From Candidatus Saccharicenans sp. (lineage in GTDB: Bacteria > Acidobacteriota > Aminicenantia > Aminicenantales > Saccharicenantaceae), in the NCBI GenBank assembly GCA_049719515.1, contig JBNARJ010000008.1, positions 43,035 through 107,034 of the forward strand: a stretch of DNA of 64,000 nucleotides, written 5' to 3'. The notes under the pieces were generated by a model that worked only from the letters and a program-made list of their open reading frames with translations, ran no database searches and was not told the DNA's origin. Shown here one piece after another: positions 1 to 13,260 of this stretch. Position numbers and translations under genes: made by a program. Every line of letters starts with the position of its first letter. The stretch's first letter is position 1.

Positions 1-1452
1 ACTGTTTCGACCCGTAAAACCCAGATGGCCAGGTTGAGCCAGGTTCATCTGAGACCGGCGCCCGGAACTTTCTCTCTCGTGGTTGAAGGTCTCGCCCGGA
101 TACTTTACGAAGAGAAAAAGTTTCAAACCGATTATCTGGAAAAACACACTGAAAATTTCCAGGCTTTCTTTAAAAAGCTTGAAAAAGTAGACCTGGAAGA
201 AATCCTGGGCAGGACCGGCCTTTCTCGGGAAATTCTGACGGAAGTGGCTCGGAAACTTTACGATTCAAAGTTAGCCTATGCTTTTTATCCGACAGGTGTT
301 CAGAGCCTCGACTCTCAGACGATGTCGGCCCTGTTCAACCTGATGCTTCTTACCGGCAAACTCGGCCAGGGAGCCGGCGGAATTATTCCGGTTACCGGGA
401 TAAGCAACCTGCTTGGAAGTTACGATATGGGGCTTTCCCCGGTGTTCCTGCCGGGATATCTGGATGCTTCTGAGGAAAAGAACATCAAGAAGCTTGAAGA
501 ACTCTGGCAGACCAAACTCAGCCGCCAGCCGGGTCAAAGCGTGAGTGCCTGTCTTGCTGAAAGCAAGTCGTTACGAGCTTTAGTGGTTGTGGACCATGAC
601 GAAGAAATAATCAGGAATGTAAACCGGATTAAAGAACTGGAACTGGTCATCTATTTTGGTGCTTACCACAACAACTTTGCCGGCCTGGCTCAGGTGATAA
701 TACCCAGACCGAGTTATGCTGAAGCAGAAGGCACGTATACTAACTCTGAGCGGAGAGTGCAGCTAAACCGGAAAAAAGTTGAACCGCCGGCCGAAGTCAG
801 GCCGCTCTGGAAAAACCTCACCGAGCTGGCCCGTGCTCTGGGCCACGACTGGAAATATCAGTCAGCCGAAGAGATATTTTCGGAAATAGCTAAGGTGGTA
901 CCTCAGTACTCAGGTCTTACCTACGCCCAGCTTGAATCTCACCTGGGCCTTAAATGGCCCTGCGATGAAAAACATCCGCAGGGGAGTGATTATCTTCAGC
1001 TGGATGAGGCCGGTCATAAATTTCGGTTTGTGCTTGACGAGAACCTGCGGCCCCGGGCGCAGACGATGGCCGAACTGAAGTCTACCTTCCCCTTTAAATT
1101 AACCGTCGGGCGAAGCAACTATTTCTGGCACCAGAATTCTTTGATGAAGAGGACCTTTATCCCGAAAAGGGAATACAACGCACTGCTGTTGCTCTACCCG
1201 AAAGGTTTTGTAGAGATTTCAGAGGAAGATGCCCGCCGCCTGCAGCTGCGGGAAAAGCAGGCGGTGCGAATAATTTCTGAATCGGCCGAAATGACTCTGG
1301 CCGTCAGGGTCTCGCCTGATGTGCTTCCCGGACAGCTTTATGTTCCTTATTTTATAGAGGGCATGATTCCAGAGTTTCTGCTTCGTCAGGTGCCCGAGCT
1401 GGAGAAAAACGAGGAATTCTTCTTGCCCGTGCGGCTGGAGAAAGCGGGGTAA
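1..1452 (+). CDS. FdhF/NuoG-like molybdopterin oxidoreductase family protein, C-terminal part (5' end outside the window); catalytic motifs degenerate
   Basis: Frame is open from base 1. Contains NLMLLTGKLG..GAGGIIPV.G.SN..GSYDMG, AEAEGTYTNSERRVQL and a C-terminal molybdopterin-dinucleotide-binding domain (LTVGR...FVEISEEDARRLQL...V.PGQLYVP). Confidence 0.85.
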   Translation, partial: TVSTRKTQMARLSQVHLRPAPGTFSLVVEGLARILYEEKKFQTDYLEKHTENFQAFFKKLEKVDLEEILGRTGLSREILTEVARKLYDSKLAYAFYPTGVQSLDSQTMSALFNLMLLTGKLGQGAGGIIPVTGISNLLGSYDMGLSPVFLPGYLDASEEKNIKKLEELWQTKLSRQPGQSVSACLAESKSLRALVVVDHDEEIIRNVNRIKELELVIYFGAYHNNFAGLAQVIIPRPSYAEAEGTYTNSERRVQLNRKKVEPPAEVRPLWKNLTELARALGHDWKYQSAEEIFSEIAKVVPQYSGLTYAQLESHLGLKWPCDEKHPQGSDYLQLDEAGHKFRFVLDENLRPRAQTMAELKSTFPFKLTVGRSNYFWHQNSLMKRTFIPKREYNALLLLYPKGFVEISEEDARRLQLREKQAVRIISESAEMTLAVRVSPDVLPGQLYVPYFIEGMIPEFLLRQVPELEKNEEFFLPVRLEKAG

Positions 1453-1455
1453 AAG

Positions 1456-2514
1456 ATGTACTGGCTTGAAAGACATCAATTAAACGCTTTGGTGGAAAAG
1501 CTCAGCCGAAGCTACGAGCTTTTCGGCCCGCGCCGTGATGAAGTTTCAAATGAGGTTGTATTTGACCGCCTGACCAATCCTGCGGAACTCAATTTAGAAG
1601 CACCGATTCCCTACAATCCACCCAAGTACATCCTTTTCCCGCATTATGAGGAAATTCTGAGGTACCGCTATGACCGCCAGTCAAAAAAGGTGGCCATCGA
1701 AAAGTTAAGCCACCTGAAGCCCAAAGCTTTGGTCGGACTGCGGGCCTGTGACCTTAACGGTATTCTCTGCCTGGACCGCTTTTTCCTCGGCCAGGAGTTT
1801 GTGGATGAAATTTACCTTGAACACCGAAAAAAACTTTTCTTGATTTCCAACACCTGCGTTCGACCTTTCCCCCAGTGTTTCTGTGTTTGCACGGACAGTG
1901 GTCCGTCGGCCAGGGAAGGTTTTGACCTGGATTTTACCAGGGTGGGCGACCGCTATCTGGTGGAAGTGGGTTCAAGGAAAGGGCAAAGCCTGGTAGAGGA
2001 ACTTGGCCTTGAGGAAGCCGGAAAAAATGCGGTTGAGCTTAAAAAGAAAGTGGTGGATGAATCGGTGTCTTCTTTTGACGCCTTTGCTCTTGAAAATAAA
2101 GCCTGGATTTCTCGGGCAACCAACCGCCTGACCACCGGCTTTATCAAACCAGAAGTGTGGGAATATATCGGTAATCAGTGCTTTGAGTGCGGAGCCTGTT
2201 CTTTTGTCTGCCCGACCTGTTCCTGCTTTAACGTGGAAGATGTCAACCGGCTCGACGGAACGACCGACCGAGTTCGCACCTGGGATTCCTGCTCTTTTGA
2301 GGGATACACCAAGATGGCTGGTGACCATAATCCCCGGAAGCCGGTGGAAGACAGGAGAAACAAGCGCTTCTTCTGCAAGCTGTCTTACTCTCAGTCCAAG
2401 AAATATCTGCGTCCGGGCTGCGTCGGTTGCGGCCGCTGTGCCAGGGTTTGCCCGGGAGACATAGGCCTGCCTAATGTCGTAACTTATATCAGAAGGGAAA
2501 TAACTGGAGACTGA
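1456..2514 (+). CDS. 4Fe-4S dicluster protein, AsrA / sulfhydrogenase beta (HydB) family
   Basis: Motifs GLRACD, CFC, CFECGACSFVCPTCSCF, R.WDSC and CVGCGRCARVCP. Confidence 0.9.
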   Translation: MYWLERHQLNALVEKLSRSYELFGPRRDEVSNEVVFDRLTNPAELNLEAPIPYNPPKYILFPHYEEILRYRYDRQSKKVAIEKLSHLKPKALVGLRACDLNGILCLDRFFLGQEFVDEIYLEHRKKLFLISNTCVRPFPQCFCVCTDSGPSAREGFDLDFTRVGDRYLVEVGSRKGQSLVEELGLEEAGKNAVELKKKVVDESVSSFDAFALENKAWISRATNRLTTGFIKPEVWEYIGNQCFECGACSFVCPTCSCFNVEDVNRLDGTTDRVRTWDSCSFEGYTKMAGDHNPRKPVEDRRNKRFFCKLSYSQSKKYLRPGCVGCGRCARVCPGDIGLPNVVTYIRREITGD

Positions 2515-3356
2515 TGATGGAAGAAAACCTGGTGCCCATTGTTACCGTGCCCGAAGTAGCGACGGTGGTCGAAATAAGGGACGAGATCGATGAGGTGAAG
2601 ACCTTTTACTTCCATTTTGACCGGCCGGAAATCGAGCAGGCTTTTAAAATTCGGTCCGGTCAATTTATCATGTGCACGGTTTTCGGAGCCGGTGAATTTG
2701 CCGTTTCCTTGCCTTTCAGCCCGGAAAACGACCGCCGGCACATTTCGGTGCGGAGAGTGGGAAAAGTTACCGCGGCGCTTCATGAGCTCCAGCCCGGGGA
2801 TAAAATTGGAGTGCGCGGTCCCTTCGGCAACGGCTTTCCCTTTGAAGAAATAAAGGGCAAAAACATTATTTACGTGGCCGGCGGTATCGGGCTTATACCT
2901 CTCCGCTCTTCCATCGTCCACGTGCTGCAGCATCGGGAGGAATTTGGCCGGGTAATTCTGGTGTACGGGGCCAGGAGCTCCAGAGATTTGATGTACAAAG
3001 AGTCTATCCGTGAGTGGAAGGCAACGGAAAATTTTGAAACATACTTCACCATCGACCGGCCGGAACCAGGCTGGACCGGGGAAGTTGGGTTTGTCAATCA
3101 ACTGGTAGCCAAGCTATCTCTTCCGGCCGACAACACGGTGGCTTTTGTTTGCGGCCCCCCGGTTATGTTCAACTCGGTGATAAAGGAACTGAAATTAAAA
3201 GGTATAAAGGAAGACCACATTTACTCAACTTTAGAGCGGCACATGAAATGCGGCATCGGCAAGTGCCAGCACTGTGCCATCGGCCGGACGCTGGTTTGCG
3301 TTGATGGACCCGTTTATACCTACAAGCAGATTAAGACCTTGGGAGAGCAGATTTAA
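2514..3356 (+). CDS. FAD/NAD(P)-binding 2Fe-2S protein, AsrB / sulfhydrogenase gamma (HydG) family
   Basis: Motifs GQF, RGPFGNGF, AGGIGLIP, YGARS, CGPPVM and MKCGIGKCQHC...VCVDGPV. Start overlaps the upstream stop codon. Confidence 0.92.
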   Translation: MMEENLVPIVTVPEVATVVEIRDEIDEVKTFYFHFDRPEIEQAFKIRSGQFIMCTVFGAGEFAVSLPFSPENDRRHISVRRVGKVTAALHELQPGDKIGVRGPFGNGFPFEEIKGKNIIYVAGGIGLIPLRSSIVHVLQHREEFGRVILVYGARSSRDLMYKESIREWKATENFETYFTIDRPEPGWTGEVGFVNQLVAKLSLPADNTVAFVCGPPVMFNSVIKELKLKGIKEDHIYSTLERHMKCGIGKCQHCAIGRTLVCVDGPVYTYKQIKTLGEQI

Positions 3357-3357
3357 C

Positions 3358-3912
3358 ATGGAAGCCCTCGACCTGTTGAAAGAAGTGGTTGGACAGAAGA
3401 CCATTTTTGCCGGCATCGGTAATGCCCTTCGCGGTGATGATGGCTTTGGCCCTTATCTTATAAGTAAATTGAAAGAGAAGAAGGTGTTGCCAGAAGACCG
3501 GTTACTCGCTGTCGAAGATGTGCCGGAAAATTTTGCTTTCCCCATTTCCAGAAAAGAAGCTGATTGTGTAATTTTTGCCGATGCGGTAATTGTGGATGCG
3601 GCGCCTGGCACTGTAGTTTTTGGCCCGCTGGAAGAGTTTGATGAAATTGGTGAGATAGCTTCCACCCACCGGATGTCTTTAAAGCTCACCGCCCGGGTGA
3701 TTGAAGAGACCGGCAAAAAAGTTTTTATCCTGGGGGTTGTCCCTGAAACCACTGAATTCGGCCGGGGCATGAGCCCCGTTGTTCTCCAGGCCGCGGAGGA
3801 ATTGGTCGAGCTGGTCAGTGACCTGCTTTCTCGAAACACGAGTCCGTCAAAATCCATGCCTAATAAAAAGCCGAGCAAGAAAAGCCGGGCTCGGGAAAGG
3901 GAGAAAATCTGA
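3358..3912 (+). CDS. hycI: Hydrogenase maturation protease, HycI-like
   Basis: Motifs GIGNALRGDDGFG, DVPEN, FADAV and STHRMSL. Start set to the ATG at 3358, just after the upstream stop. Confidence 0.88.
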   Translation: MEALDLLKEVVGQKTIFAGIGNALRGDDGFGPYLISKLKEKKVLPEDRLLAVEDVPENFAFPISRKEADCVIFADAVIVDAAPGTVVFGPLEEFDEIGEIASTHRMSLKLTARVIEETGKKVFILGVVPETTEFGRGMSPVVLQAAEELVELVSDLLSRNTSPSKSMPNKKPSKKSRAREREKI

Positions 3913-5804
3913 TGATGCCTGTCTGGCTTTTTTGGCTAACCCTGTTACTTCTTGCAGTTGCCTCTTTGCTATCTTTACTATTTAAGAATAATGACAGGCT
4001 CATCAGGTGGAGCGGCACAGGTTTTGTCTCTCTGAGCTCCCTGTTATTAATATGGCTGGCGATTCAGGTTCTCTGGCGGCTTAATCATCCGTTAGAGTTT
4101 GAAATAAACTTCTGGTCGGCGAAGATTCCCGTGTTAATCGACGGGCTGTCCGGCCTGTTTTTGATGCTGCTGGCTGTTCTCACTTTAAGCTCAGTCTTTT
4201 TTTCCTCTGGTTTCAATAAAGAAATTCATCCGGTGTCTAACCGGAAGTTTTACTTTGTTTTCCCCTGGTTTATAGCCGGCCTGATTGGACTGCTGACGGT
4301 GGATGACCTGGGGCTGGGTTTCACCATCGCCTGGCAGCTTATGGCTTGGTCATCCTATTTGCTGGTTAGATGGGGTCGTCCTCTTAAATTATCAGCCAGG
4401 CCAGCTCTTACCTACCTCCTTTTCATGCAGGCCGCCTGGTTGATGGTCGCTGGCGCACCATTTTTGGTAAAAGGCTATGAGTTCGGTGAGCCGCTTATGG
4501 AAATCGGGCAAAAACTGGCCGGTAGCCCCCGGCTGTCCGTCCTTATATTTTTTGCCCTGCTTCTCCTGGGTTTTGGCCTGAAGACCGGAATTTTTCCCCT
4601 CGGGCAACTCTGGATTCCCAGTGCTTATTCGACAGCCAATCCTTCAGTTTCTGCCCTCCTGGCCGGCATCCTGGAGAAGACAGGAGTTTTTGGTCTGATG
4701 CGAATTTTCTTCTTCCTGAGCCAGGGTGCCTCGCCGAATTTTAGCGCCATCTTGTGGGGTAAAACTCTGTTGATAGCCGGAACCCTCACGCTTTTCGTCG
4801 GCACGGTGCAGGCGATCAAGCAGAGCGATTATCTTAAATTGCTGGCTTTCAGTTCGATAGGCCAGGTTGGTTACATCATATTTGCTCTGGGCAGCAGTCT
4901 GCTGGCCGCCAGCTCCGGTTCTCCGGCCGGCCAGTCGCTGGCTCTGGTGATTTTTATCGGCGCGGTCTACCACAGCCTTAATCATGGAATATTCAAGGGT
5001 CTGCTTTTCCTGACCGGCGGTAACCTGCTTTATGCAACTCGCACCAGGGACTTAAACCGGCTGGGTGGACTGCTGGCGGTTATGCCTGCCACCGGTCTTC
5101 TGGTTGCCTTGGCTTCTTATTCGATTGCCGGCATGCCGGCTTCCAGCGGGTTTTTCAGTAAATGGCTGATGATTTCCGGAAATTTTTTAGCCGGACAGAA
5201 CAACCTGCTCATGACCTGGAGCGGCATTATAGCCCTGTTTACCGCGGCTTTTACCTTAGCCTGCTATGTAAAATTTTTCGGGCTGGCTTTTACTTCGGCC
5301 GGGGCTAACTTGAAATTAAACAGAACCATAAAAGAAGTGCCGGCTTCTATGTTAGCGGGCGGGATTCTGCTGGCTGTTATCTGCCTGAGCCAGGCTTTTT
5401 TGCCGATGGCTTATGTGAAGCTCATAAGCCACAGTTTAAGTCTCAGCCCGGGCTTCCTGCTGGCCGATAGCCGTCAGAGCTATCTTTCCGGCAGCCTGTC
5501 TGAAGTTAAAATATTCAATGGTCAAAATCTGCTGGCTGCGGTTTCGCCGCTGGTTATTCTTTTGCTGATGGTGGCTTTAATCATCCTCGGCCGGGCTCTG
5601 CGGCAATCAGCCGGGACGGCTGAAGTTAAGGTGCCTGCCTGGCTGTGCGGCTACCAGGACCTTAACCAGGACAACGTTTATGCTGACCGGAACATGTTTT
5701 CTGACCTCAAGAAATTTTTCTGGTGGACAGGTGGAAGAGCAAAACAGGTAGTTGATGATGAAGCTGCAGAAACTGCTCAAATCAAAAATGAGGTTGGCTC
5801 ATGA
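3912..5804 (+). CDS. Antiporter-like membrane subunit of group 4 hydrogenase (HycC/HyfB, NuoL/M-like)
   Basis: Many TM helices. Motifs GLKTGIFPL..WIP.A, LLAFSSIGQVG, YHSLNHGIFKGLLFL..G, GFFSKW and W.CGY. Confidence 0.9.
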   Translation: MMPVWLFWLTLLLLAVASLLSLLFKNNDRLIRWSGTGFVSLSSLLLIWLAIQVLWRLNHPLEFEINFWSAKIPVLIDGLSGLFLMLLAVLTLSSVFFSSGFNKEIHPVSNRKFYFVFPWFIAGLIGLLTVDDLGLGFTIAWQLMAWSSYLLVRWGRPLKLSARPALTYLLFMQAAWLMVAGAPFLVKGYEFGEPLMEIGQKLAGSPRLSVLIFFALLLLGFGLKTGIFPLGQLWIPSAYSTANPSVSALLAGILEKTGVFGLMRIFFFLSQGASPNFSAILWGKTLLIAGTLTLFVGTVQAIKQSDYLKLLAFSSIGQVGYIIFALGSSLLAASSGSPAGQSLALVIFIGAVYHSLNHGIFKGLLFLTGGNLLYATRTRDLNRLGGLLAVMPATGLLVALASYSIAGMPASSGFFSKWLMISGNFLAGQNNLLMTWSGIIALFTAAFTLACYVKFFGLAFTSAGANLKLNRTIKEVPASMLAGGILLAVICLSQAFLPMAYVKLISHSLSLSPGFLLADSRQSYLSGSLSEVKIFNGQNLLAAVSPLVILLLMVALIILGRALRQSAGTAEVKVPAWLCGYQDLNQDNVYADRNMFSDLKKFFWWTGGRAKQVVDDEAAETAQIKNEVGS

Positions 5805-7492: not shown

Positions 7493-8388
7493 AAATCGCT
7501 GGCGTTCTGTTAAACCTGCTCTTTTTCCTGTTGTTTGCACCTTTTCTGGAAGGGGTCATGAGAAAAATCACGGCCAGGATTCAATCTCGACAGGGCCCGC
7601 CACTCTACCAGCCTTATCTGGACCTCTTTAAGCTTTTTGGTAAAGAAAATTTAATTTCCGCCAGAAACTGGGCTTTTCGCTTGGCCCCGCTGCTGGCTTT
7701 TGCCTCAATTCTGGCCGCCGTGGCTATTTTGCCCTTTCATGGTGGGGAAACTTTTCTTTCTCAGAAAGCAGACCTGATGACGCTGATTTACCTGTTAACC
7801 CTGAGCGGTTTTTCCATACTAATTGGTGCTCTGGCCAGCGGCAATCCGTTTGGCAGCGTGGGTGCCAGCCGGGAAATGATGACCATCATCATGCTGGAAC
7901 CGGTTCTGGCCATGACCATCATCCTGGGGGCGCTGAGAAATGGCACGATGACCCTCTCCGGAGCTATTCAGGGCGTGGCCAGCACCAAAAGCTTTTCTTA
8001 TTTTCTGATGCTGGTCGTTTACCTTTTGGCCCTTCAGGCTTTTGTTTCACGGCAGCCTTTTGACATACCGGAAGCTGAAGTGGAAATACTCGAGGGACCT
8101 TACATTGAATACAGCGGGCCGAACTATGCACTTTTTCGCTATGCCTTAAACCTAAAAAGAATGTTTTATGCCTGGCTGCTGGTCAACGCTTTTCTGAGTT
8201 TCTTGCGCCCGGCGAATTGTTTTCTGGACTTTTTGTTGCAAGCCATACTTATAATCCTGCTGTTCGTTATGATTTCTGTCATCGGGGCAACTCACCCGAG
8301 GTTCAGGATAGACCAGGCGATTAAATTTTATGCCTTTTTGATAGTTTTATCGTTGGTAGCTGTTGGCCTGGGAGTAAGCGGGCTATGA
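7489..8388 (+). CDS. hycD: Group 4 hydrogenase membrane subunit (HycD/HyfC, NuoH-like)
   Basis: Motifs RKITARIQSRQGPP..QPY.D..KL..KE, GASRE, PFDIPEAE.E..EG...EYSG and R.RIDQ. Confidence 0.92.
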   Translation: MKIAGVLLNLLFFLLFAPFLEGVMRKITARIQSRQGPPLYQPYLDLFKLFGKENLISARNWAFRLAPLLAFASILAAVAILPFHGGETFLSQKADLMTLIYLLTLSGFSILIGALASGNPFGSVGASREMMTIIMLEPVLAMTIILGALRNGTMTLSGAIQGVASTKSFSYFLMLVVYLLALQAFVSRQPFDIPEAEVEILEGPYIEYSGPNYALFRYALNLKRMFYAWLLVNAFLSFLRPANCFLDFLLQAILIILLFVMISVIGATHPRFRIDQAIKFYAFLIVLSLVAVGLGVSGL

Positions 8389-8412
8389 TTGGGAAGAGAG
8401 GAGAGGCTTTAA

Positions 8413-8958
8413 ATGTGGCTCTGGAATAAGATAAAGCAGCTGGCCATTTCCTGGAAATCCGGAGTGGTCACCCTGCGCTATCCATTTGAACCAAGACCGG
8501 CCCCTGCCGGTTTTCGAGGTCAGCCTATCTGGGACCACACAAAGTGTATTGGCTGTGCCGGCTGTGCCAATCACTGCCCGGCGCGGACGATTTTTCTGAG
8601 GGATATCTGCCAGGAAATCAGAGTCCTCCTTTACGATTCTTCACGCTGCACATATTGCGGCCGCTGTGCCGACCTCTGCCCGGAAAAAGCCATAACTATG
8701 AGTGACCGCTACGAGCTGGCCACGGATAACAGGCAGGACATCACCCAGGTCATCGAACTTTTCATGATGACCTGTCAGCGATGCGGGCGGTGTTATGACC
8801 TGGAAATCAAAAACAGCCTTGACCGGCTGCATACGCTCGGTTACCGTTATGACAGCCTGGAAGTGCGAAAGGTCATCCGCCACAGCACGGCTGAATTTTC
8901 GCCTGAAATGCTGGAAAAAACCAAAACATACGAAAGGCCGAAGCAACTGGAGAAATGA
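8413..8958 (+). CDS. hycF: Group 4 hydrogenase 2x[4Fe-4S] subunit (HycF/HyfH, NuoI-like)
   Basis: Motifs T..YPF....P.GFRG.P, CIGCAGCANHCP and CTYCGRCADLCP. Confidence 0.9.
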   Translation: MWLWNKIKQLAISWKSGVVTLRYPFEPRPAPAGFRGQPIWDHTKCIGCAGCANHCPARTIFLRDICQEIRVLLYDSSRCTYCGRCADLCPEKAITMSDRYELATDNRQDITQVIELFMMTCQRCGRCYDLEIKNSLDRLHTLGYRYDSLEVRKVIRHSTAEFSPEMLEKTKTYERPKQLEK

Positions 8959-9521
8959 GCATGTGGAAAAAACTGGCTGAAAAAGCTTTTCGCCGCTCCA
9001 TCTGGGTTTACCACTGTAACAGCGGGGCCTGCAACGGTTGCGACATAGAAATTTTAAACGTGCTCACGCCTTATTATGATGTGGAAAGGTTTGGCATCAG
9101 GCTGGTTGGTTCTCCCCGCCACGCTGATGCTATTCTTCTTTCCGGGGCAGTCACCAGGCCGACCCTGCCCCTGGTCAGGAAAGCCTACCAGGCTGTTCCG
9201 GCGCCCAAACTGGTTTTTGCCGTCGGTTCCTGTGCCATTGGCGGCGGCTGCTGGTATGATACTTATAATGTCACCGGCGGTGGTGAAAAAGCCATTCCGG
9301 TTCATTATTTTATTCCAGGCTGTCCGCCAAGACCGGAAGCCATTATCTACGGAATTGCCCTGGCGCTGGGACTGGTGGATAAAAAAGTGGCGCCAGTTGA
9401 GTTGAAGCAGATGGAGTTTCCGGTCGATATGTACCGGCACGGTAAACTTCTTGAAGTTAACAACGTCATCTATAAGCTCCTGGATGAAGAAGATGACCGT
9501 CTGAATTTCGGGAGGAAATGA
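8955..9521 (+). CDS. hycG: Group 4 hydrogenase small subunit (HycG/HyfI, NuoB-like)
   Basis: Motifs GACNGCDIE, SPRHAD, GSCAIGGG and IPGCPPRP. Confidence 0.93.
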   Translation: MSMWKKLAEKAFRRSIWVYHCNSGACNGCDIEILNVLTPYYDVERFGIRLVGSPRHADAILLSGAVTRPTLPLVRKAYQAVPAPKLVFAVGSCAIGGGCWYDTYNVTGGGEKAIPVHYFIPGCPPRPEAIIYGIALALGLVDKKVAPVELKQMEFPVDMYRHGKLLEVNNVIYKLLDEEDDRLNFGRK

Positions 9522-9522
9522 T

Positions 9523-9930
9523 ATGGCCATGATACTTCTGGTGGACGATGACCGCGACCTGACCCAAAGCCTGAGTCAGGTGTTAAAGGTTAAAGGTTAT
9601 GAAGTTGAAGTGGCTCACAGCGGACAGGAAGGGTTGAAGAAGCTGCTGGAAGTAAAGCCTGACCTTCTCATCCTGGACGTCATGATGGAAACGGACACGG
9701 CCGGGTTCGAGGCGGTGTACCAGATAAGAAGCGAACGCTCAGATTCTAAGTACCGGGAGTTTAAAAATATTCCGATAATCATCCTGACGGCCATTGACCA
9801 GGTAACCAATTCGCGTTTTTCCCTGGACCAGGAAGAAAGTTTCCTGCCCGGGCGCAATGAATTCCTGACTAAACCGGTTGACCTGGAGGAATTGCTGGAA
9901 AAAATCGAAATGAGTCTGGCCAGAAAATAA
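9523..9930 (+). CDS. Single-domain response regulator (receiver)
   Basis: Motifs LLVDDD, LILDVMM, IILTA and LTKP. Confidence 0.92.
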   Translation: MAMILLVDDDRDLTQSLSQVLKVKGYEVEVAHSGQEGLKKLLEVKPDLLILDVMMETDTAGFEAVYQIRSERSDSKYREFKNIPIIILTAIDQVTNSRFSLDQEESFLPGRNEFLTKPVDLEELLEKIEMSLARK

Positions 9931-9957
9931 GAGAAAAGTTTAAGTGAAATAAATAAA

Positions 9958-11910
9958 ATGCGAAAAATGAACCTCAAAGAGTTTGTTCAAAGGCTGGAAA
10001 CGCTGCGCCGCAGCCTGAGGTTCAAGCTGATTTTCGGGTTGCTGACCATCGTCTTCCTGATGGGCGCCCTGTCCATTTATCTGGGGGTAAATTCCATAAA
10101 CCGCAACGTCATCCGCGAAGCCTATGATAACGTTAAGAATAGCCTCAAGGCGATAAATGACCTTTACCAGGAAGAGATAAAGAGCCGGTCGAAAATTATT
10201 GAATACCTTTCCCGCACCTCAGAGATTGTCAACGCGACGGCCGCGGGCGACAGGAAATACCTGTATGAAAAATTGCTGCAGATAAAAGAAGAATTTGGTT
10301 TTGACATAGTCAATGTGGTTAAGCCGGACGGAACGATTCTGGTCAGGGCTAATAATTTCGACGCCTATGGCGACAGCGTTGCCCACTACAAATACATTCA
10401 ATGGGTGCTGCGTAACAAAAAACCGGCGGCCGGCACCGGTATTCTTGGGTATGAAAATATCAAAAACGAAGGACAGGACCTGGCCGAAAGAACTTTGATT
10501 CCGATTATCCCCACTCCAAAAGCCAGACCGCAGCGCAAGGAGATGGAAGAAAGAGCTCTGGTTTTAAAGACAGTTTCACCCATCTTCCGGCAGGGACGCC
10601 TGGTGGGAGTGCTTTATGCGGCGGTGCTTCTGAACAATAACGACCGTTTTGTCGACCGGTTTAAAAAACTGATCTTTAAGGAAGAAAAGGTTAAAGGCAA
10701 AGACGTCGGCACCATCACCATTTTCCTCGATGATGTTCGGGTAGCCACTAACGTTTTGGATGAAAACGGGCGCAGGGCCGTGGGCACGCTGGTGTCAGAA
10801 GAAGTTTACCGGCAGGTTTTTGAGAAAGGGCAAGACTGGCTGGGGAAAGCCTTTGTGGTCAATGATTATTATCTGTCTGGCTACACACGACTGACCGATG
10901 TGGAGGGTGTGCCGGTGGGCATGCTTTATGTGGGTATTCTAGAAGCCAAGTTTACGTCTATCCTGCGCCGCACGACTCTGCTTTATTTTATGCTAATTTT
11001 TCTGATGACGGTTGTTGCGGTGTACGTCTCCACTTACCTGGTCAATCTTTACACCAGACCGATTAACCGGTTGATAAAAGCCACTTCAGAGATTGCCAGG
11101 GGGAACTACCATCTGCTGGAAATTCCCCCGGAAGAAAGCGCCGAAATACGGGAACTTGAAGAATATTTTAACGATATGGTCAAAGCGGTCGAAGAAAGGG
11201 ATGAGCGTTTAAGAGAGCTGGCAGAAAAAACTATCCTGCGGTCAGAAAAGCTGGCTTCCATCGGACGGCTGGCTTCGGGTATCGCCCATGAAATCAACAA
11301 CCCGCTGACCGGCATTCTCACTTACAGCAGCCTGCTGGCCGAAGAGCTGAAAGGTACACCTTATGAAGAAGACCTGAAAACCATCAAGGAAGAAACGCTG
11401 CGTTGCCGCAAAATTGTCAGAGGCCTGCTCGATTTTGCCCGTGATTACAAACCAGAAAAAACAAGCATAAACCTGAATTCTTTGATTGAGGAAGCTTTAC
11501 AGCTGCTGGAAAAACATGTGAATTTTCATAATATAAAAATTGTTAAAGATCTCGAGCCAAACCTGCCTGAAGTCAAAGTGGATGCGGATGAGTTTCGTTC
11601 GGTAATCAACAACCTGGCGGTCAATGCGGCTGACGCCATGCCTAACGGTGGCCAACTGACCATTACCACCAGGTTTGACCGGGCGGCCAACCAGGTTATA
11701 ATCAAGGTAGCCGACACCGGAGTAGGAATAAGCGAAGAAAACTTGAAGAAAATTTTCGAGCCCTTCTTTACCACCAAAGAAAAGGGTAAGGGAACCGGCC
11801 TGGGGCTGGCCATGACCTACGGTGTGATAAAAAGACATAACGGAACGATAGATGTGAAGAGCAGGGTAGGAGAAGGTACCGAGTTTATCATAAAATTACC
11901 GGTAGAATGA
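9958..11910 (+). CDS. Membrane sensor histidine kinase (TM-Cache-like-TM-HAMP-HisKA-HATPase)
   Basis: Two TM segments, H-box AHEINNPL, N-box [23 protein letters not shown] and GTGLGL. Confidence 0.93.
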
Positions 11911-11932
11911 CTGCCGGAAAAAAGGATAGAAA

Positions 11933-13000
11933 ATGACCAAACCGAGGATTTTATTCATTGACGACGAAGAAATTGTCCTGCGCAGCTGCCGCCGGATTTT
12001 TGCCAGTTCGGACTATGAAATTGATACCGCCCTGTCCGGGGAGGAAGGCTTAAGCAAAGCCATCAATCAGGACTATGACATAGTGGTTACTGACTTAAAA
12101 ATGCCCGGAATCGGTGGGATGGAAGTGCTGAAAAGGCTGCGTCAGGTTCGGCCTGATACCACGGTGATTATTTTTACCGGGTATGCCAGCGTGGACACAG
12201 CAAGAGAAGCTCTGAAGAATGGGGCTTTTGACTACATTCCCAAGCCTTTTACGCCGGAAGAAATCAGGGAAGTTATCAAAAATGCTCTGGAAGCCCGGGC
12301 GGGAAAGCAGCGCACCATGCTCGACCTGATGGCCATTGTCTCGCATGAATTAAAAAGCCCGGTCTCGGCCCTGCACACGACTGCTTCTACCTTATATAAG
12401 GGTTACTTTGGCCAGCTATCTCCCGAGCAGATGAAAATTCTGGAAACCATAATTCGCAACTGCGAATACTTAGAAGACATAATCAGAAGTTACCTGGATT
12501 TGTCCAAGATGGAGCTGGAGCAGCTCGATTCCTTTAAAGAAGAAATATTTTTTGTCAAAGATGTGGTTGACGAGGTGTTACAGCTCCCGGAAATCGCGGA
12601 AAACACCAAGAAAATGAAAGTCGTGAAAACTTTTGCCGATGAGGTCAAGATAAACGGCGACCCCCGGTTGCTCAAGATTCTCGTCCGCAACCTGGTCAGC
12701 AATGCCATTAAATACGGTTATGAGGGCACTGAAGTTAAGTTGGGCCTGGAAAAAAAGAATGGGGAAATGGTCTTTTCTGTTTATAACGAAGGGGTGGGTA
12801 TTAATCCCGAGGACGGGCAGAGGCTGTTCAAAAAGTTTGAGCGGCTGAAGCAGAGAGGGACCGAGGGGGTAAAAGGCTCTGGTCTCGGCCTGTACATCTG
12901 CAAGAAAATAGTCGACAGTCATAAGGGTAAAATCTGGTTTGAATCTGAGCCGGGCAAGTGGGTCACCTTTTTTGTCAGTCTGCCACTGTCCGCCGGGTAA
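11933..13000 (+). CDS. Hybrid receiver-histidine kinase
   Basis: N-terminal receiver domain (FIDDE, TDLKMP, PKPF), then SHELKSP, NLVSNAIKY and GSGLGL. Confidence 0.9.
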   Translation: MTKPRILFIDDEEIVLRSCRRIFASSDYEIDTALSGEEGLSKAINQDYDIVVTDLKMPGIGGMEVLKRLRQVRPDTTVIIFTGYASVDTAREALKNGAFDYIPKPFTPEEIREVIKNALEARAGKQRTMLDLMAIVSHELKSPVSALHTTASTLYKGYFGQLSPEQMKILETIIRNCEYLEDIIRSYLDLSKMELEQLDSFKEEIFFVKDVVDEVLQLPEIAENTKKMKVVKTFADEVKINGDPRLLKILVRNLVSNAIKYGYEGTEVKLGLEKKNGEMVFSVYNEGVGINPEDGQRLFKKFERLKQRGTEGVKGSGLGLYICKKIVDSHKGKIWFESEPGKWVTFFVSLPLSAG

Positions 13001-13230: not shown

Positions 13231-13260
13231 TTGACAAGCCGAGGTAAACTCCCCTATAAT
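13231..13260 (+). promoter_or_regulatory. Sigma70 promoter of ssrA
   Basis: TTGACA-N18-TATAAT with both hexamers perfect, 9 nt upstream of the tmRNA 5' end. Confidence 0.85.

What the first reader, a model, noticed from the sequence alone, without database searches (positions are those of the whole stretch)
1..13000. FHL-like group 4 [NiFe] hydrogenase operon carrying an AsrAB/HydBG NAD(P)H module and its own signalling trio: candidate new complex
Seen: one tightly packed operon with stop/start overlaps at 2514, 3912, 5801, 7489 and 8955. The order is FdhF-like, AsrA-like, AsrB-like, HycI, HycC, HycE, HycD, HycF, HycG, then RR, HK and RR-HK. Known: E. coli FHL-1 takes electrons from FdhF through HycB, whereas HydB/HydG-type pairs normally serve group 3b sulfhydrogenases or Asr sulfite reductase. 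No group 3b catalytic subunit or AsrC lies in the window. Inference: the AsrAB pair is an NAD(P)H input/output module docking, possibly via the FdhF-like scaffold, on a membrane-bound Hyc-type hydrogenase. That would make it an NAD(P)H/H2 complex rather than a formate hydrogenlyase.
Basis: partly seen in the sequence, partly recalled or inferred. Interest (0 to 1): 0.8.

Follow-up and report, generated by a model that had tools for sequence, protein, structure and literature searches.

The report
Membrane hydrogenase with NAD(P)H module, dead FdhF
An uncultured fermenting bacterium carries a conserved operon for a membrane-bound nickel-iron hydrogenase that resembles E. coli's formate hydrogenlyase, but its formate-dehydrogenase-like subunit has lost the catalytic residues and a flavin/NAD(P)H-type module replaces the usual ferredoxin link, so it probably couples hydrogen to NAD(P)H; nobody has tested this.

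Summary
The genes, their order and the five stop/start overlaps are as described.

The unit starts upstream of the window with a stand-alone receiver and a 164-aa protein of no known family.

- No HycB, AsrC, NuoEF, Hdr or group 3b gene lies upstream.
- No AsrC or HycB-type protein, and no second HydB/AsrA homologue, was found in the 93%-complete genome.
- The linkage is conserved in 80 loci from Aminicenantes, Spirochaetota and two cultured Betaproteobacteria.

The FdhF-like subunit keeps its [4Fe-4S] cysteines (75 of 75). It has no Cys/Sec (0 of 75) and no Arg (0 of 75) at the catalytic positions. It is the genome's only MopB protein, and no MobA was found.

Best reading (0.55): an NAD(P)H-linked, possibly ion-coupled, H2-evolving or H2-consuming complex, not a formate hydrogenlyase. 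Docking, cofactor use and direction are inferred, not shown.

Related AsrAB-plus-MopB-plus-group-4 arrangements are in print from sequence only. This scan noted the same architecture in at least 8 other genomes.

Verdict: new variant of a known kind, uncharacterised, and testable in culture.

The parts
1..1452 (+). FdhF-like MopB subunit. The gene starts 566 nt before the window and is 672 aa in full (L001:17434-19452). It keeps an N-terminal [4Fe-4S] site and lacks the catalytic residues.
   Evidence: Pfam Molybdop_Fe4S4, Molybdopterin and Molydop_binding. TIGR01591 scores 415 bits against a cut-off of 666. Gly130/Gln131/Thr321 stand where FDHs have Cys(Sec)/His/Arg. Across 75 sequences the 4 Cys are 75/75; the Cys/Sec position is G 66, W 9; the Arg position is T/A/V/P.
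1456..2514 (+). HydB/AsrA-like multi-[4Fe-4S] subunit (352 aa)
   Evidence: Fer4_22 at 99 bits. HydB 154.5, AsrA 149 and ShyB 148.6 bits, all below their cut-offs. Best solved relative is P. furiosus sulfhydrogenase I beta, 9nez_B, 145.7 bits, with its cysteine motifs aligned. 18 Cys are invariant in 31 sequences. It is the only Fer4_22 hit over the cut-off in the genome.
2514..3356 (+). HydG/AsrB-like FAD / NAD(P)-binding / [2Fe-2S] subunit (280 aa)
   Evidence: FAD_binding_6, NAD_binding_1 and DHODB_Fe-S_bind. Best solved relative is 9nez_C, sulfhydrogenase I gamma, 197.9 bits. GGxGxxP and the 4 cluster Cys are conserved in 78 of 78.
3358..3912 (+). HycI-type maturation endopeptidase (probable start ATG 3358; the mechanical ORF begins at GTG 3274)
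   Evidence: TIGR00072 at 103 bits against a cut-off of 47. Start inferred. Present at this position in 68 of 78 testable loci.
3912..5804 (+). HycC/HyfB-like antiporter-type membrane subunit (630 aa)
   Evidence: Proton_antipo_M. Hydrogenase 4 subunit B scores 302 bits, below its cut-off of 667. Best solved relative is MbhH, 6cfw_H.
5801..7492 (+). HycE-like [NiFe] large subunit with fused NuoC-like N-terminal domain and a C-terminal extension (563 aa)
   Evidence: Best solved relative is E. coli HycE, 7z0s_E, 423 bits. RICGICGSVH and DPCISCTDR motifs are present, followed by a tail. The four Ni-Fe Cys are conserved in 70 of 70.
7489..8388 (+). HycD/NuoH-like membrane subunit (299 aa)
   Evidence: NADHdh at 203 bits. 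Best solved relative is 7z0s_D.
8413..8958 (+). HycF/NuoI-like 2x[4Fe-4S] subunit (181 aa)
   Evidence: PRK12387 formate hydrogenlyase iron-sulfur subunit, 111.8 bits, below its cut-off of 204. Best solved relative is 7z0s_F.
8955..9521 (+). HycG/NuoB-like small subunit (188 aa)
   Evidence: Oxidored_q6. Solved relatives are MbhJ, 6cfw_J, 166 bits and HycG, 7z0s_G, 156 bits.
9523..9930 (+). Stand-alone receiver (CheY-like, 135 aa), starting 1 nt after the hycG-like stop
   Evidence: Response_reg only, with no output domain. Present after hycG in 68 of 70 testable loci, including two Betaproteobacteria. The phospho-acceptor Asp is kept in 67 of 69; Thr and Lys in 69 of 69.
9958..11910 (+). Sensor histidine kinase with Cache-type sensor, HAMP, HisKA and HATPase domains (650 aa)
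   Evidence: Present at this position in 58 of 69 testable loci.
11933..13000 (+). Receiver-histidine kinase hybrid without sensor or DNA-binding domain (355 aa)
   Evidence: An orthologue follows the kinase in 57 of 80 loci; in most of the others the fetched flank ends before that position.

Best explanation
The operon encodes an eight-subunit membrane-bound group 4 [NiFe] hydrogenase. Its core (HycC, D, E, F, G) resembles E. coli hydrogenase 3. Its electron-input side is different.

Proposed path: NAD(P)H is oxidised, or NAD(P)+ reduced, at the FAD/[2Fe-2S] HydG/AsrB-like subunit. Electrons pass through the [4Fe-4S] clusters of the HydB/AsrA-like subunit, which stands in for the missing HycB. 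They continue to HycF, then HycG, then the Ni-Fe site of HycE.

The FdhF-like protein is not a formate dehydrogenase. It is retained as a cofactor-poor, [4Fe-4S]-bearing structural or relay subunit, as the MopB relic is in NuoG of complex I.

NAD(P)H to H2 is uphill at standard potentials (recalled: about -320 against -414 mV). The HycC/HycD membrane arm therefore most likely couples the reaction to the ion gradient. Either the gradient drives H2 release, or H2 oxidation at high H2 yields NAD(P)H plus gradient.

Shown here: gene content, conserved linkage, intact Ni-Fe, Fe-S and nucleotide-binding motifs, loss of the FDH catalytic residues, and absence of HycB, AsrC and 3b partners.
Inferred: subunit contacts, NAD(P)H as the partner, ion coupling and direction.
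For: 1. Architecture and tight coupling.

2. Conserved linkage. The loci were found with the AsrA-like protein alone; counts are present / testable:
- FdhF-like 77 of 78
- AsrB-like 79 of 79
- HycC 74 of 77
- HycE 73 of 76
- HycD 69 of 71
- HycF 69 of 71
- HycG 68 of 70
The taxa are Aminicenantes, Spirochaetota-labelled MAGs, Chitiniphilus shinanonensis DSM 23277 and Chitinilyticum litopenaei DSM 21440.

3. The hydrogenase is real. The Ni-Fe cysteines are kept in 70 of 70, and there is a C-terminal tail plus a HycI gene.

4. The AsrB-like subunit keeps GGxGxxP and the [2Fe-2S] Cys in 78 of 78. It is most like the gamma subunit of P. furiosus sulfhydrogenase I, which NCBIfam names NADPH-dependent. 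The AsrA-like subunit aligns with the beta subunit, cysteine motifs included.

5. The FdhF-like subunit has 0 of 75 Cys or Sec and 0 of 75 Arg at the catalytic positions. Its four cluster Cys are kept in 75 of 75.

6. It is the only PF00384 protein in the genome. MobA was not found with TIGR02665, nor among the 3 PF12804 matches.

7. Within the genus, a MobA-like gene occurs in 7 of 26 genomes. All 7 carry an additional, strongly matching MopB gene, and in 5 of them (G002, G005, G020, G023, G024) it lies on the same contig within about 10 kb. The other 19 genomes lack a full-length MobA-like gene (G018 has only a partial match, 28.7 bits, with an internal stop). Of those 19, 15 still carry the cluster (for 14 relatives, plus this genome itself).

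8. The molybdopterin and tungstate-uptake genes of the genome sit next to an aldehyde:ferredoxin oxidoreductase gene, which accounts for them.

9. No HycB/CooF-type protein (PF13247) was found in the genome. No AsrC match reaches the cut-off. There is no second HydB/AsrA homologue.

10. The FdhF-like subunit diverges faster than the redox subunits. Between families it is 45-49% identical, against 66-67% for AsrA, 71-74% for AsrB and 74-78% for HycG. This fits a non-catalytic role.
Against: - There is no direct evidence for any subunit contact or for NAD(P)H use.
- The genome already has a Hox-like hydrogenase with its own NuoEF-type NADH module, so a second NAD(P)H-linked enzyme needs a reason.
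- 43 of 75 FdhF-like sequences still keep His at the second catalytic position.
- A MopB enzyme can work without a protein ligand to the metal (arsenite oxidase; recalled), so Gly at the Cys position alone does not prove inactivity.
- The MobA argument rests on a 93.5%-complete assembly and on related, non-independent genomes. One uncharacterised nucleotidyltransferase (L103:1148-1879) cannot be excluded as a substitute.
- Many MobA-less genomes of the genus carry a further weak MopB-like match of about 850 aa, whose nature I did not examine.
- Authors of the related Hun complex proposed ferredoxin, not NAD(P)H, as the donor of the AsrAB-like pair.
- All subunits score below the NCBIfam equivalog cut-offs, so function cannot be transferred by family membership.
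Confidence: 0.55

Rival explanations
1. Ferredoxin-linked energy-converting hydrogenase. The AsrA-like and FdhF-like Fe-S subunits take electrons from reduced ferredoxin, as proposed for HunABC of Atribacteria. The AsrB-like flavoprotein is a side branch or a regulatory site.
For: - Glass et al. read the AsrAB-like pair of Hun as a ferredoxin acceptor (passages).
- Ferredoxin to H2 is downhill and fits an ion-pumping group 4 enzyme (established for Ech and Mbh; recalled).
- The organism has ferredoxin-producing enzymes such as aldehyde:ferredoxin oxidoreductases.
Against: - The AsrB-like subunit keeps a complete NAD-binding domain, with GGxGxxP conserved in 78 of 78. That would be unexplained.
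- The genome already has an Mrp/Mbh-type group 4 hydrogenase without such a module, the usual ferredoxin-dependent type.
Confidence: 0.15
2. Confurcating or bifurcating enzyme. NAD(P)H and reduced ferredoxin together drive H2 formation, or the reverse, with the FdhF-like subunit as the ferredoxin-docking site.
For: - It would solve the uphill NAD(P)H to H2 step without drawing on the gradient.
- There are two separate candidate entry points: the flavoprotein and the exposed [4Fe-4S] of the FdhF-like subunit.
Against: - No known bifurcating module (NuoEF/HydBC, HdrA, EtfAB or NfnAB type) is present.
- A single FAD of the FNR type is not known to bifurcate (recalled).
Confidence: 0.1
3. A hydrogenlyase after all. 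The FdhF-like subunit is an active Mo/W enzyme with a non-canonical site, oxidising formate or another small substrate, and the AsrAB-like pair merely replaces HycB as a wire.
For: - Public annotation and one paper call the Aminicenantes enzyme a formate hydrogenlyase complex (PMC5459899, passage).
- Pfam pterin-binding domains still match.
- His is kept in 43 of 75 sequences.
- MoaA, MoaC, MoeA, MobB and a tungstate transporter are present.
Against: - 0 of 75 have Cys or Sec and 0 of 75 have Arg at the catalytic positions.
- MobA was not found here, and a full-length MobA-like gene was not found in 19 of 26 genomes of the genus. Where MobA is present it accompanies a different MopB gene.
- No pyruvate formate-lyase match reaches the cut-off (139.8 bits against 994).
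- The Moco genes are explained by the adjacent AOR.
Confidence: 0.07
4. Two enzymes, one operon. FdhF-like plus AsrAB-like form a separate soluble oxidoreductase that is only co-expressed with a ferredoxin-type Hyc hydrogenase.
For: One genus member (G024, locus L018) keeps intact FdhF-like, AsrA-like, AsrB-like and HycI genes although the Hyc and signalling genes are gone.
Against: - That locus carries a deletion scar: a HycC fragment (aa 24-212) abuts a kinase fragment (aa 431-539). It is a recent loss, not a stand-alone design.
- The Hyc core has no other input subunit, and no HycB/CooF-type protein was found in the genome.
- Gene order and translational coupling are kept across phyla.
Confidence: 0.08

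Closest known systems
E. coli formate hydrogenlyase-1 / hydrogenase 3 (FdhF + HycBCDEFG; PDB 7Z0S/7Z0T; [NiFe] group 4a)
   Same: - The core has the same five subunit types.
- HycE, HycF and HycD have their best solved relatives in 7z0s.
- HycE has the fused NuoC-like domain, the C-terminal tail and a HycI protease.
- There is an FdhF-family subunit.
- The membrane arm is minimal, with one antiporter-like subunit.
   Different: - There is no HycB.
- The FdhF-like subunit lacks the catalytic Cys/Sec and Arg.
- A HydB/HydG-type flavin module is added.
- HycC and HycG are at least as close to Mbh subunits.
- All subunits score below the equivalog cut-offs.
- Two-component genes accompany the cluster; FhlA/HycA-type regulation (recalled for E. 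coli) was not looked for.
Pyrococcus furiosus sulfhydrogenase I (group 3b; HydADBG; PDB 9NEZ)
   Same: The beta and gamma subunits are the closest solved relatives of the AsrA-like and AsrB-like proteins, at 145.7 and 197.9 bits. The cysteine motifs and the FAD/NAD(P) domain align.
   Different: That enzyme is soluble and has group 3b catalytic subunits. Here the pair sits with a membrane-bound group 4 core and an FdhF-like protein.
'Hun' supercomplex of Atribacteria (Glass et al., bioRxiv 10.1101/536078) and the enigmatic group 4 locus of Saganbacteria RX5A (Matheus Carnevali et al. 2019, PMC6349859); both from sequence only
   Same: - Both combine an AsrA/AsrB-like pair without AsrC with a group 4 [NiFe] hydrogenase.
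- Both have a MopB-like 4Fe-4S protein that could not be called a formate dehydrogenase (passages).
   Different: - Those loci have Mrp-type multi-subunit antiporter modules.
- Hun is classed as 4g, with a CGIC-CYCC metal site, and the Saganbacteria locus includes CooF.
- Here the site is CGIC...CISC, the arm is Hyc-type and minimal, the gene order is FdhF-like first, and signalling genes are attached.
- I could not see their figures or supplements, which may show more likeness.
Respiratory complex I (NuoG MopB relic plus NADH module on a hydrogenase-derived core)
   Same: The logic is the same: an inactivated FdhF-type domain kept beside a nucleotide-oxidising flavin module on a NuoB/C/D/H/I-type core (relic status of NuoG recalled; NuoG, NuoD and NuoI similarity).
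   Different: - The Ni-Fe site is intact instead of a quinone site.
- The flavin module is HydBG-type, not NuoEF-type.
- The FdhF-like protein lacks the N-terminal NuoG ferredoxin domains.
Thermococcus onnurineus Fdh3 (NADP-dependent formate dehydrogenase; PMC8965080)
   Same: It is a cytoplasmic FdhA-type subunit operating with Fe-S proteins and an NAD(P)-binding flavoprotein (abstract and section 12).
   Different: - Its catalytic Cys-His-Arg set is intact and it contains tungsten.
- Its NADP subunit is Nfn/GltD-like, not HydG-like.
- No hydrogenase is attached.

Membership tests
Formate hydrogenlyase (E. coli FHL-1 type, group 4a) | Group 4 [NiFe] large subunit with both CxxC metal motifs and a C-terminal tail cleaved by HycI | tested here: met
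   Motifs and tail seen; Cys conserved in 70 of 70; HycI family over its cut-off.
Formate hydrogenlyase (E. coli FHL-1 type, group 4a) | Catalytically competent formate dehydrogenase subunit (Sec/Cys, His, Arg) | tested here: not met
   Gly, Gln and Thr stand at these positions. 0 of 75 have Cys or Sec and 0 of 75 have Arg. TIGR01591 scores 415 bits against a cut-off of 666.
Formate hydrogenlyase (E. coli FHL-1 type, group 4a) | HycB-type poly-[4Fe-4S] subunit between FdhF and HycF | tested here: not met
   None in the cluster. PF13247 gives 0 matches in the 93.5%-complete genome, while 10 of 14 control genomes ring.
Formate hydrogenlyase (E. coli FHL-1 type, group 4a) | Subunits reach the curated equivalog scores for Hyc/Hyf proteins | tested here: not met
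   HyfB 302 against 667; HycF-type 111.8 against 204; HyfH 101 against 270; HycI equivalog 68 against 119.
Formate hydrogenlyase (E. coli FHL-1 type, group 4a) | HydDB / phylogenetic placement of the large subunit in 4a | tested here: inconclusive
   The nearest solved chain is E. coli HycE (423 bits against 261 for MbhL). HydDB is not available, and a sample of 250 genomes of the class of Chitiniphilus (one further genome not scored) gave no canonical HycE for a tree.
Group 3b sulfhydrogenase (HydABGD / ShyABCD) | Group 3b large and small subunits encoded with the beta/gamma pair | tested here: not met
   None in the cluster or upstream. The only other group 3-type enzyme in the genome has its own NuoEF/HoxU module.
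Group 3b sulfhydrogenase (HydABGD / ShyABCD) | Beta and gamma subunits reach the equivalog scores | tested here: not met
   HydB 154.5 against 750; HydG 201 against 650; ShyB 148.6 against 690; ShyC 198 against 600.
Anaerobic sulfite reductase AsrABC | Sirohaem catalytic subunit AsrC | tested here: not met
   The best genome match to TIGR02912 is 34.5 bits against 324, and covers the ferredoxin-motif region only.
Anaerobic sulfite reductase AsrABC | AsrA and AsrB reach the equivalog scores | tested here: not met
   149 against 323 and 189 against 289.
Hun complex (Atribacteria, proposed) | HunG metal site CGIC-CYCC and an Mrp-type Na+/H+ antiporter module | tested here: not met
   The second motif here is CISC. 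Only HycC and HycD are membrane subunits. The features are as stated in the passages.
Respiratory complex I | NuoEF NADH-oxidising module and loss of the Ni-Fe ligands in NuoD | tested here: not met
   No NuoE/F in the cluster. The Ni-Fe Cys are present.
Two-component phosphotransfer system | HisKA plus HATPase kinases and receivers with the conserved Asp, Thr and Lys | tested here: met
   Domains. Receiver after hycG: Asp 67 of 69, Thr 69 of 69, Lys 69 of 69.
Two-component phosphotransfer system | A DNA-binding or enzymatic output domain on a response regulator | tested here: not met
   None of the three receiver-bearing proteins has any further Pfam domain except the kinase core of the hybrid.

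The most novel reading that the evidence does not exclude
The complex is a reversible, ion-coupled NAD(P)H:H+ oxidoreductase. It would be a living parallel to the step from a formate hydrogenlyase-like ancestor to complex I.

Its activity, not only its expression, would be gated by its own phosphorelay. The stand-alone receiver is translationally coupled to hycG and kept across three phylum-level groups. It would bind the enzyme when phosphorylated by the Cache kinase / hybrid kinase pair. No DNA-binding output is encoded in the cluster.
Probability: 0.15. Interest if true: 0.85.

Novelty: new variant of a known kind. Interest (0 to 1): 0.6.

Why it matters
Annotation pipelines and at least one paper file this operon as 'formate hydrogenlyase', so hydrogen and formate budgets inferred for Aminicenantes, Spirochaetota and others from metagenomes may be wrong.

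If the enzyme links NAD(P)H to H2 at the membrane, fermenters would have a way to dispose of glycolytic reducing power as H2 at the cost, or gain, of ion gradient. No such group 4 hydrogenase has been characterised, as far as I recall.

It would also be an independent example of what is thought to have happened in the evolution of complex I. There, a formate-dehydrogenase subunit became fossilised beside a newly acquired nucleotide-oxidising module.

The operon also occurs in two cultured, deposited Betaproteobacteria: Chitiniphilus shinanonensis DSM 23277 and Chitinilyticum litopenaei DSM 21440. That makes the question testable at the bench now.

Tried and rejected
1. Complex prediction of the AsrA-like with the HycF-like protein, using alignments of 31 rows each: score 0.10 and 0.01 against a mark of 0.32; no verdict. 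It is neither evidence for nor against docking.

2. Expression: no RNA holder is listed. The six runs are labelled RNA-Seq but the tool judges them probably DNA. Short, low-depth contigs of a sludge metagenome with 0-6 mismatches lie on parts of the operon. This says nothing about transcription.

3. Phylogenetic placement of HycE: HydDB is not available. A sample of 250 genomes of the class of Chitiniphilus (one further genome, G291, was not scored) gave only 33-35% identical matches besides Chitiniphilus itself, probably NuoCD-like (not examined), so no reference set for a tree was obtained.

4. The 164-aa upstream protein:
- no Pfam or NCBIfam family
- no usable protein-atlas hit
- a confident all-helical model (pLDDT 94.6)
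- no Foldseek PDB match at E <= 0.001
- only weak VIA-align matches (Z 5-6), below the noise level for helical proteins, among them RsbR N-terminal and globin-coupled-sensor domains
No TorD/NarJ-type chaperone was listed, which excludes nothing.

5. Riboswitch or other RNA upstream: only tRNA-Asp was found.

6. Promoter and terminator scans: nothing decisive. Weak sigma-70-like sites lie before the FdhF-like gene, and a perfect consensus lies before the next gene, the amidase.

7. HydDB group 4f as an identity: rejected. In the papers read, 4f denotes Ehr-like enzymes lacking Ni-Fe ligands, or an Ech-type six-subunit enzyme.

8. T. onnurineus Fdh3 as a homologue of the module: rejected. Its NADP subunit is Nfn/GltD-like.

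9. L048 as a stand-alone FdhF-like/AsrAB locus: the copies are truncated or broken, so it was not used.

10. Literature searches for a description of the Hyc-type version returned no such paper in the held library. Papers in subscription journals and all supplementary files were not visible.

Full report
**What is there.**
- an FdhF-like MopB protein (5'-open, ending at 1452)
- a HydB/AsrA-like Fe-S protein (1456-2514)
- a HydG/AsrB-like FAD/NAD(P)/[2Fe-2S] protein (2514-3356)
- a HycI-type endopeptidase
- HycC-, HycE-, HycD-, HycF- and HycG-like subunits (3912-9521)
- a stand-alone receiver (9523-9930)
- a Cache/HAMP histidine kinase (9958-11910)
- a receiver-kinase hybrid (11933-13000)

HycI probably starts at ATG 3358, one base after the preceding stop.

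The window lies at G000:C8:43035-107034. Upstream sequence (L001) shows that the FdhF-like gene is 672 aa long. It is preceded by a second stand-alone receiver and a 164-aa protein without family, and before those by tRNA-Asp, a 138-aa ORF and htpX. No HycB, NuoEF, Hdr, AsrC or group 3b gene lies upstream. Downstream, an amidase, a GerM-like protein and Der follow after a 576-nt gap.

**The hydrogenase core is intact and Hyc-like.** The large subunit has the RICGICGSVH and DPCISCTDR motifs followed by a tail. Its best solved relative is E. coli HycE (7z0s_E, 423 bits; MbhL 261 bits). The four metal cysteines are kept in 70 of 70 orthologues.

HycF and HycD also have their best solved relatives in 7z0s. 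HycG is about equally close to MbhJ and HycG. HycC is closest to MbhH. All subunits score below the NCBIfam equivalog cut-offs for Hyc/Hyf proteins. This is a relative of hydrogenase 3/4, not an orthologue set.

**The FdhF-like subunit is not a formate dehydrogenase.** I aligned it with the F420-dependent and the HDCR formate dehydrogenases. The catalytic Cys/Sec, His and Arg are replaced by Gly130, Gln131 and Thr321. The triad is as named for several FDHs in PMC8965080, section 12. The E. coli residue numbers are recalled only.

Results for 75 sequences (the window plus 74 loci with at least 85% coverage) are:

| Position | Residues found |
|---|---|
| Four N-terminal cluster Cys | invariant, 75 of 75 |
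| Cys/Sec | Gly 66, Trp 9 |
| Arg | Thr 50, Ala 16, Val 4, Pro 5 |
| His | His 43, Gln 19, Leu 7, Tyr 6 |

There is no in-frame TGA.

**A cofactor test.** I added a test that does not depend on residues.
- The protein is the only PF00384 match in the 93.5%-complete genome.
- The genome has MoaA, MoaC, MoaB/Mog, MoeA, MobB and a tungstate ABC transporter. These lie beside an aldehyde:ferredoxin oxidoreductase gene, and two further AOR matches exist. AOR accounts for them.
- MobA makes the guanine dinucleotide form needed by MopB enzymes (recalled). It was not found with TIGR02665. The three PF12804 matches are IspD, a mannose-1-phosphate guanylyltransferase and an inositol-phosphate cytidylyltransferase-like protein.

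Across 26 genomes of the genus, a full-length MobA-like gene (E about 1e-30) occurs in 7. All 7 carry an additional MopB gene with a far stronger Pfam match (E 1e-57 to 1e-61, or cut by a contig end in one). In five of the seven (G002, G005, G020, G023, G024) it lies within about 10 kb of MobA on the same contig; in G001 and G011 it is on a different contig.

The other 19 genomes lack a full-length MobA-like gene, although G018 has a partial 28.7-bit match with an internal stop. Fifteen of the 19 still carry the operon: the AsrA-like orthologue was found in 21 of 24 genus relatives, 14 of them among these 19, plus this genome itself. So MobA travels with another enzyme, not with this one.

Caveats:
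- The genomes are related and incomplete.
- One uncharacterised nucleotidyltransferase cannot be excluded as a substitute.
- Many MobA-less genomes carry another weak MopB-like match of about 850 aa, which I did not examine.

**The AsrAB-like pair.** The AsrA-like protein matches the HydB, AsrA and ShyB models about equally, all far below their cut-offs. It aligns with the beta subunit of P. furiosus sulfhydrogenase I, cysteine motifs included (9nez_B). Eighteen Cys are invariant in 31 sequences, among them two CxxCxxCxxxCP motifs.

The AsrB-like protein is closest to the gamma subunit (9nez_C, 197.9 bits). It keeps GGxGxxP and the four [2Fe-2S] Cys in 78 of 78.

Nothing else in the genome accounts for the pair:
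- The AsrA-like gene is the only Fer4_22 match over the cut-off.
- No AsrC match reaches the cut-off.
- No HycB/CooF-type protein was found.
- The other hydrogenases are self-sufficient: a group 1 enzyme; a Hox-like enzyme with fused NuoE-NuoF and HoxU; and an Mrp/Mbh-type group 4 enzyme with its own HycI.

**Conservation of the linkage.** Within the order, eight fetched loci show the full order: receiver, 164-aa protein, FdhF-like, AsrA, AsrB, (HycI), HycCEDFG, receiver, kinase, hybrid. This holds in three further genus members and in four genomes of other families.

A scan of one genome per species, with an alignment of the AsrA-like protein, found 120 relatives. The best 80 (60-93% identical) were kept. 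Counted by position, as present / testable:

| Gene | Present / testable |
|---|---|
| FdhF-like | 77 / 78 |
| AsrB | 79 / 79 |
| HycI | 68 / 78 |
| HycC | 74 / 77 |
| HycE | 73 / 76 |
| HycD | 69 / 71 |
| HycF | 69 / 71 |
| HycG | 68 / 70 |
| receiver after hycG | 68 / 70 |
| Cache kinase | 58 / 69 |
| upstream receiver | 35 / 71 |
| 164-aa protein | 42 / 72 |

The hybrid kinase was seen in 57 loci. Most others end before that position.

The record titles name Ca. Saccharicenans and Aminicenantes, Spirochaetota or Leptospirales-labelled MAGs, and two cultured Betaproteobacteria. These are Chitiniphilus shinanonensis DSM 23277 (L092) and Chitinilyticum litopenaei DSM 21440 (L099). The window's organism is therefore a member of Ca. 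Saccharicenans or a near relative.

One genus member (G024, L018) has lost everything from mid-HycC to mid-kinase, leaving a scar. This is a recent deletion, not evidence for a stand-alone FdhF-like/AsrAB enzyme.

Between families the FdhF-like protein is 45-49% identical. The figures for the others are 66-67% (AsrA), 71-74% (AsrB), 63-67% (HycE) and 74-78% (HycG). This fits relaxed, non-catalytic constraint.

**How it most likely works.** HycB is missing and the FdhF-like subunit is stripped. The HydB/AsrA-like protein is then the only candidate wire, and the HydG/AsrB-like flavoprotein the only candidate substrate site.

I therefore read the complex as an NAD(P)H-linked membrane hydrogenase. 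The path would run NAD(P)H to FAD/[2Fe-2S], to the AsrA-like clusters, to HycF, to HycG, to Ni-Fe. The FdhF-like [4Fe-4S] would lie on or beside the path.

NAD(P)H to H2 is uphill at standard potentials (recalled values). So the HycC/HycD arm probably couples the reaction to the ion gradient in one direction or the other. Alternatively, the enzyme works only at very low H2.

These steps are inference. The single complex-prediction job gave no verdict and is reported only among the things tried.

Rivals, set out with their evidence in their own section:
- a ferredoxin-linked enzyme, as proposed for Hun
- a confurcating enzyme
- a non-canonical hydrogenlyase
- two separate enzymes in one operon

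**The signalling genes.** The cluster carries two kinases and three receiver domains but no DNA-binding output.

The receiver after hycG starts one base after the hycG stop. It is kept even in the two Betaproteobacteria (47-50% identity), which lack the kinases at this place. It retains the phospho-acceptor Asp in 67 of 69 sequences.

This allows a bolder reading, raised before in this scan (note e1-1473158): that the enzyme itself is switched by phosphorylation. It does not prove it. A relay to a distant transcription factor is equally possible.

**Comparison with what is known.**
- A paper on a hot-spring mat calls the Aminicenantes group 4 enzyme a 'formate hydrogenlyase complex' (PMC5459899, passage).
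- Matheus Carnevali et al. (PMC6349859, passage) describe in Saganbacteria RX5A a group 4 hydrogenase with Mrp-like subunits. It has a molybdopterin oxidoreductase that 'could not be identified as a formate dehydrogenase', plus CooF, asrA and asrB.
- Glass et al. (bioRxiv 10.1101/536078, passages) describe the Atribacteria 'Hun' operon. HunAB are AsrAB-like with AsrC missing, some MAGs have a 4Fe-4S molybdopterin-domain protein, the large subunit is of type 4g with a CGIC-CYCC site, and ferredoxin is the proposed donor.

Both of these descriptions rest on sequence only. The version here differs in four ways: a Hyc-type minimal arm, a canonical metal site, the FdhF-like gene first, and attached signalling genes. 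I did not find it described in the held library. Supplements and subscription journals were not visible.

This scan has noted the same architecture on other DNA at least eight times. One of those is a Ca. Saccharicenans genome. My residue counts, synteny counts and the MobA test were made independently here.

It is a new variant of a known kind, namely a group 4 [NiFe] hydrogenase with a swapped input module. It is of real interest for hydrogen metabolism in uncultured fermenters and for the evolution of complex I. It can be tested in two culture-collection strains.

Noticed in passing
L001:16839-17333 (+), = G000:C8:41873-42367, just upstream of the window: A conserved 164-aa protein with no Pfam or NCBIfam family gives a confident all-helical model (pLDDT 94.6). 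Only weak structural matches appear (Z 5-6), among them RsbR N-terminal and globin-coupled-sensor domains. It sits between a stand-alone receiver and the FdhF-like gene in 42 of 72 testable loci.
   Followed up: partly
L018 (G024:C5:332500-352400), about 11530-12456: Deletion scar in a genus relative. A HycC fragment (aa 24-212) abuts a kinase fragment (aa 431-539), while the FdhF-like, AsrA-like, AsrB-like and HycI genes stay intact.
   Followed up: yes
G000:C13:42360-46884 (L105:2360-6884): A Hox-like soluble [NiFe] hydrogenase with a fused NuoE-NuoF protein (605 aa), a HoxU-like protein and small and large subunits. HypB and HypA follow it.
   Followed up: partly
G000:C12:5030-14798 (L106:30-9798): A second group 4 hydrogenase of Mrp/Mbh type: three antiporter-like subunits, NuoB/C/D/H/I-like subunits and its own HycI-type protease.
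   Followed up: partly
Genus relatives G001, G002, G005, G011, G020, G023, G024: A MobA-like gene occurs only in these 7 of 26 genomes. Each also has an extra, strongly matching MopB gene of about 780-830 aa, which lies near MobA on the same contig in 5 of the 7 (G002, G005, G020, G023, G024). I did not identify its substrate class.
   Followed up: partly
L001:11920-13245 (-): A citrate synthase scores above the cut-off of the 'eukaryotic' citrate (Si)-synthase equivalog (TIGR01793, 688.8 against 619.75 bits) in a bacterial MAG.
   Followed up: no
G000:C7:49490-51151 (+): A glycyl-radical enzyme of 799 aa lies next to a radical-SAM gene. It scores far below the pyruvate formate-lyase cut-off (139.8 against 994 bits), so its substrate is unknown.
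   Followed up: no
window 13231-13260 (+): A perfect sigma-70 consensus (TTGACA, 18 nt, TATAAT) lies in the gap before the amidase gene. It marks the start of the next transcription unit.
   Followed up: no
L048:8844-11800: A scaffold of another Aminicenantes MAG carries only a C-terminal half of the FdhF-like gene, an AsrA-like gene and a broken AsrB-like gene, with no Hyc genes within 10 kb. This is either a decayed copy or a misassembly.
   Followed up: partly
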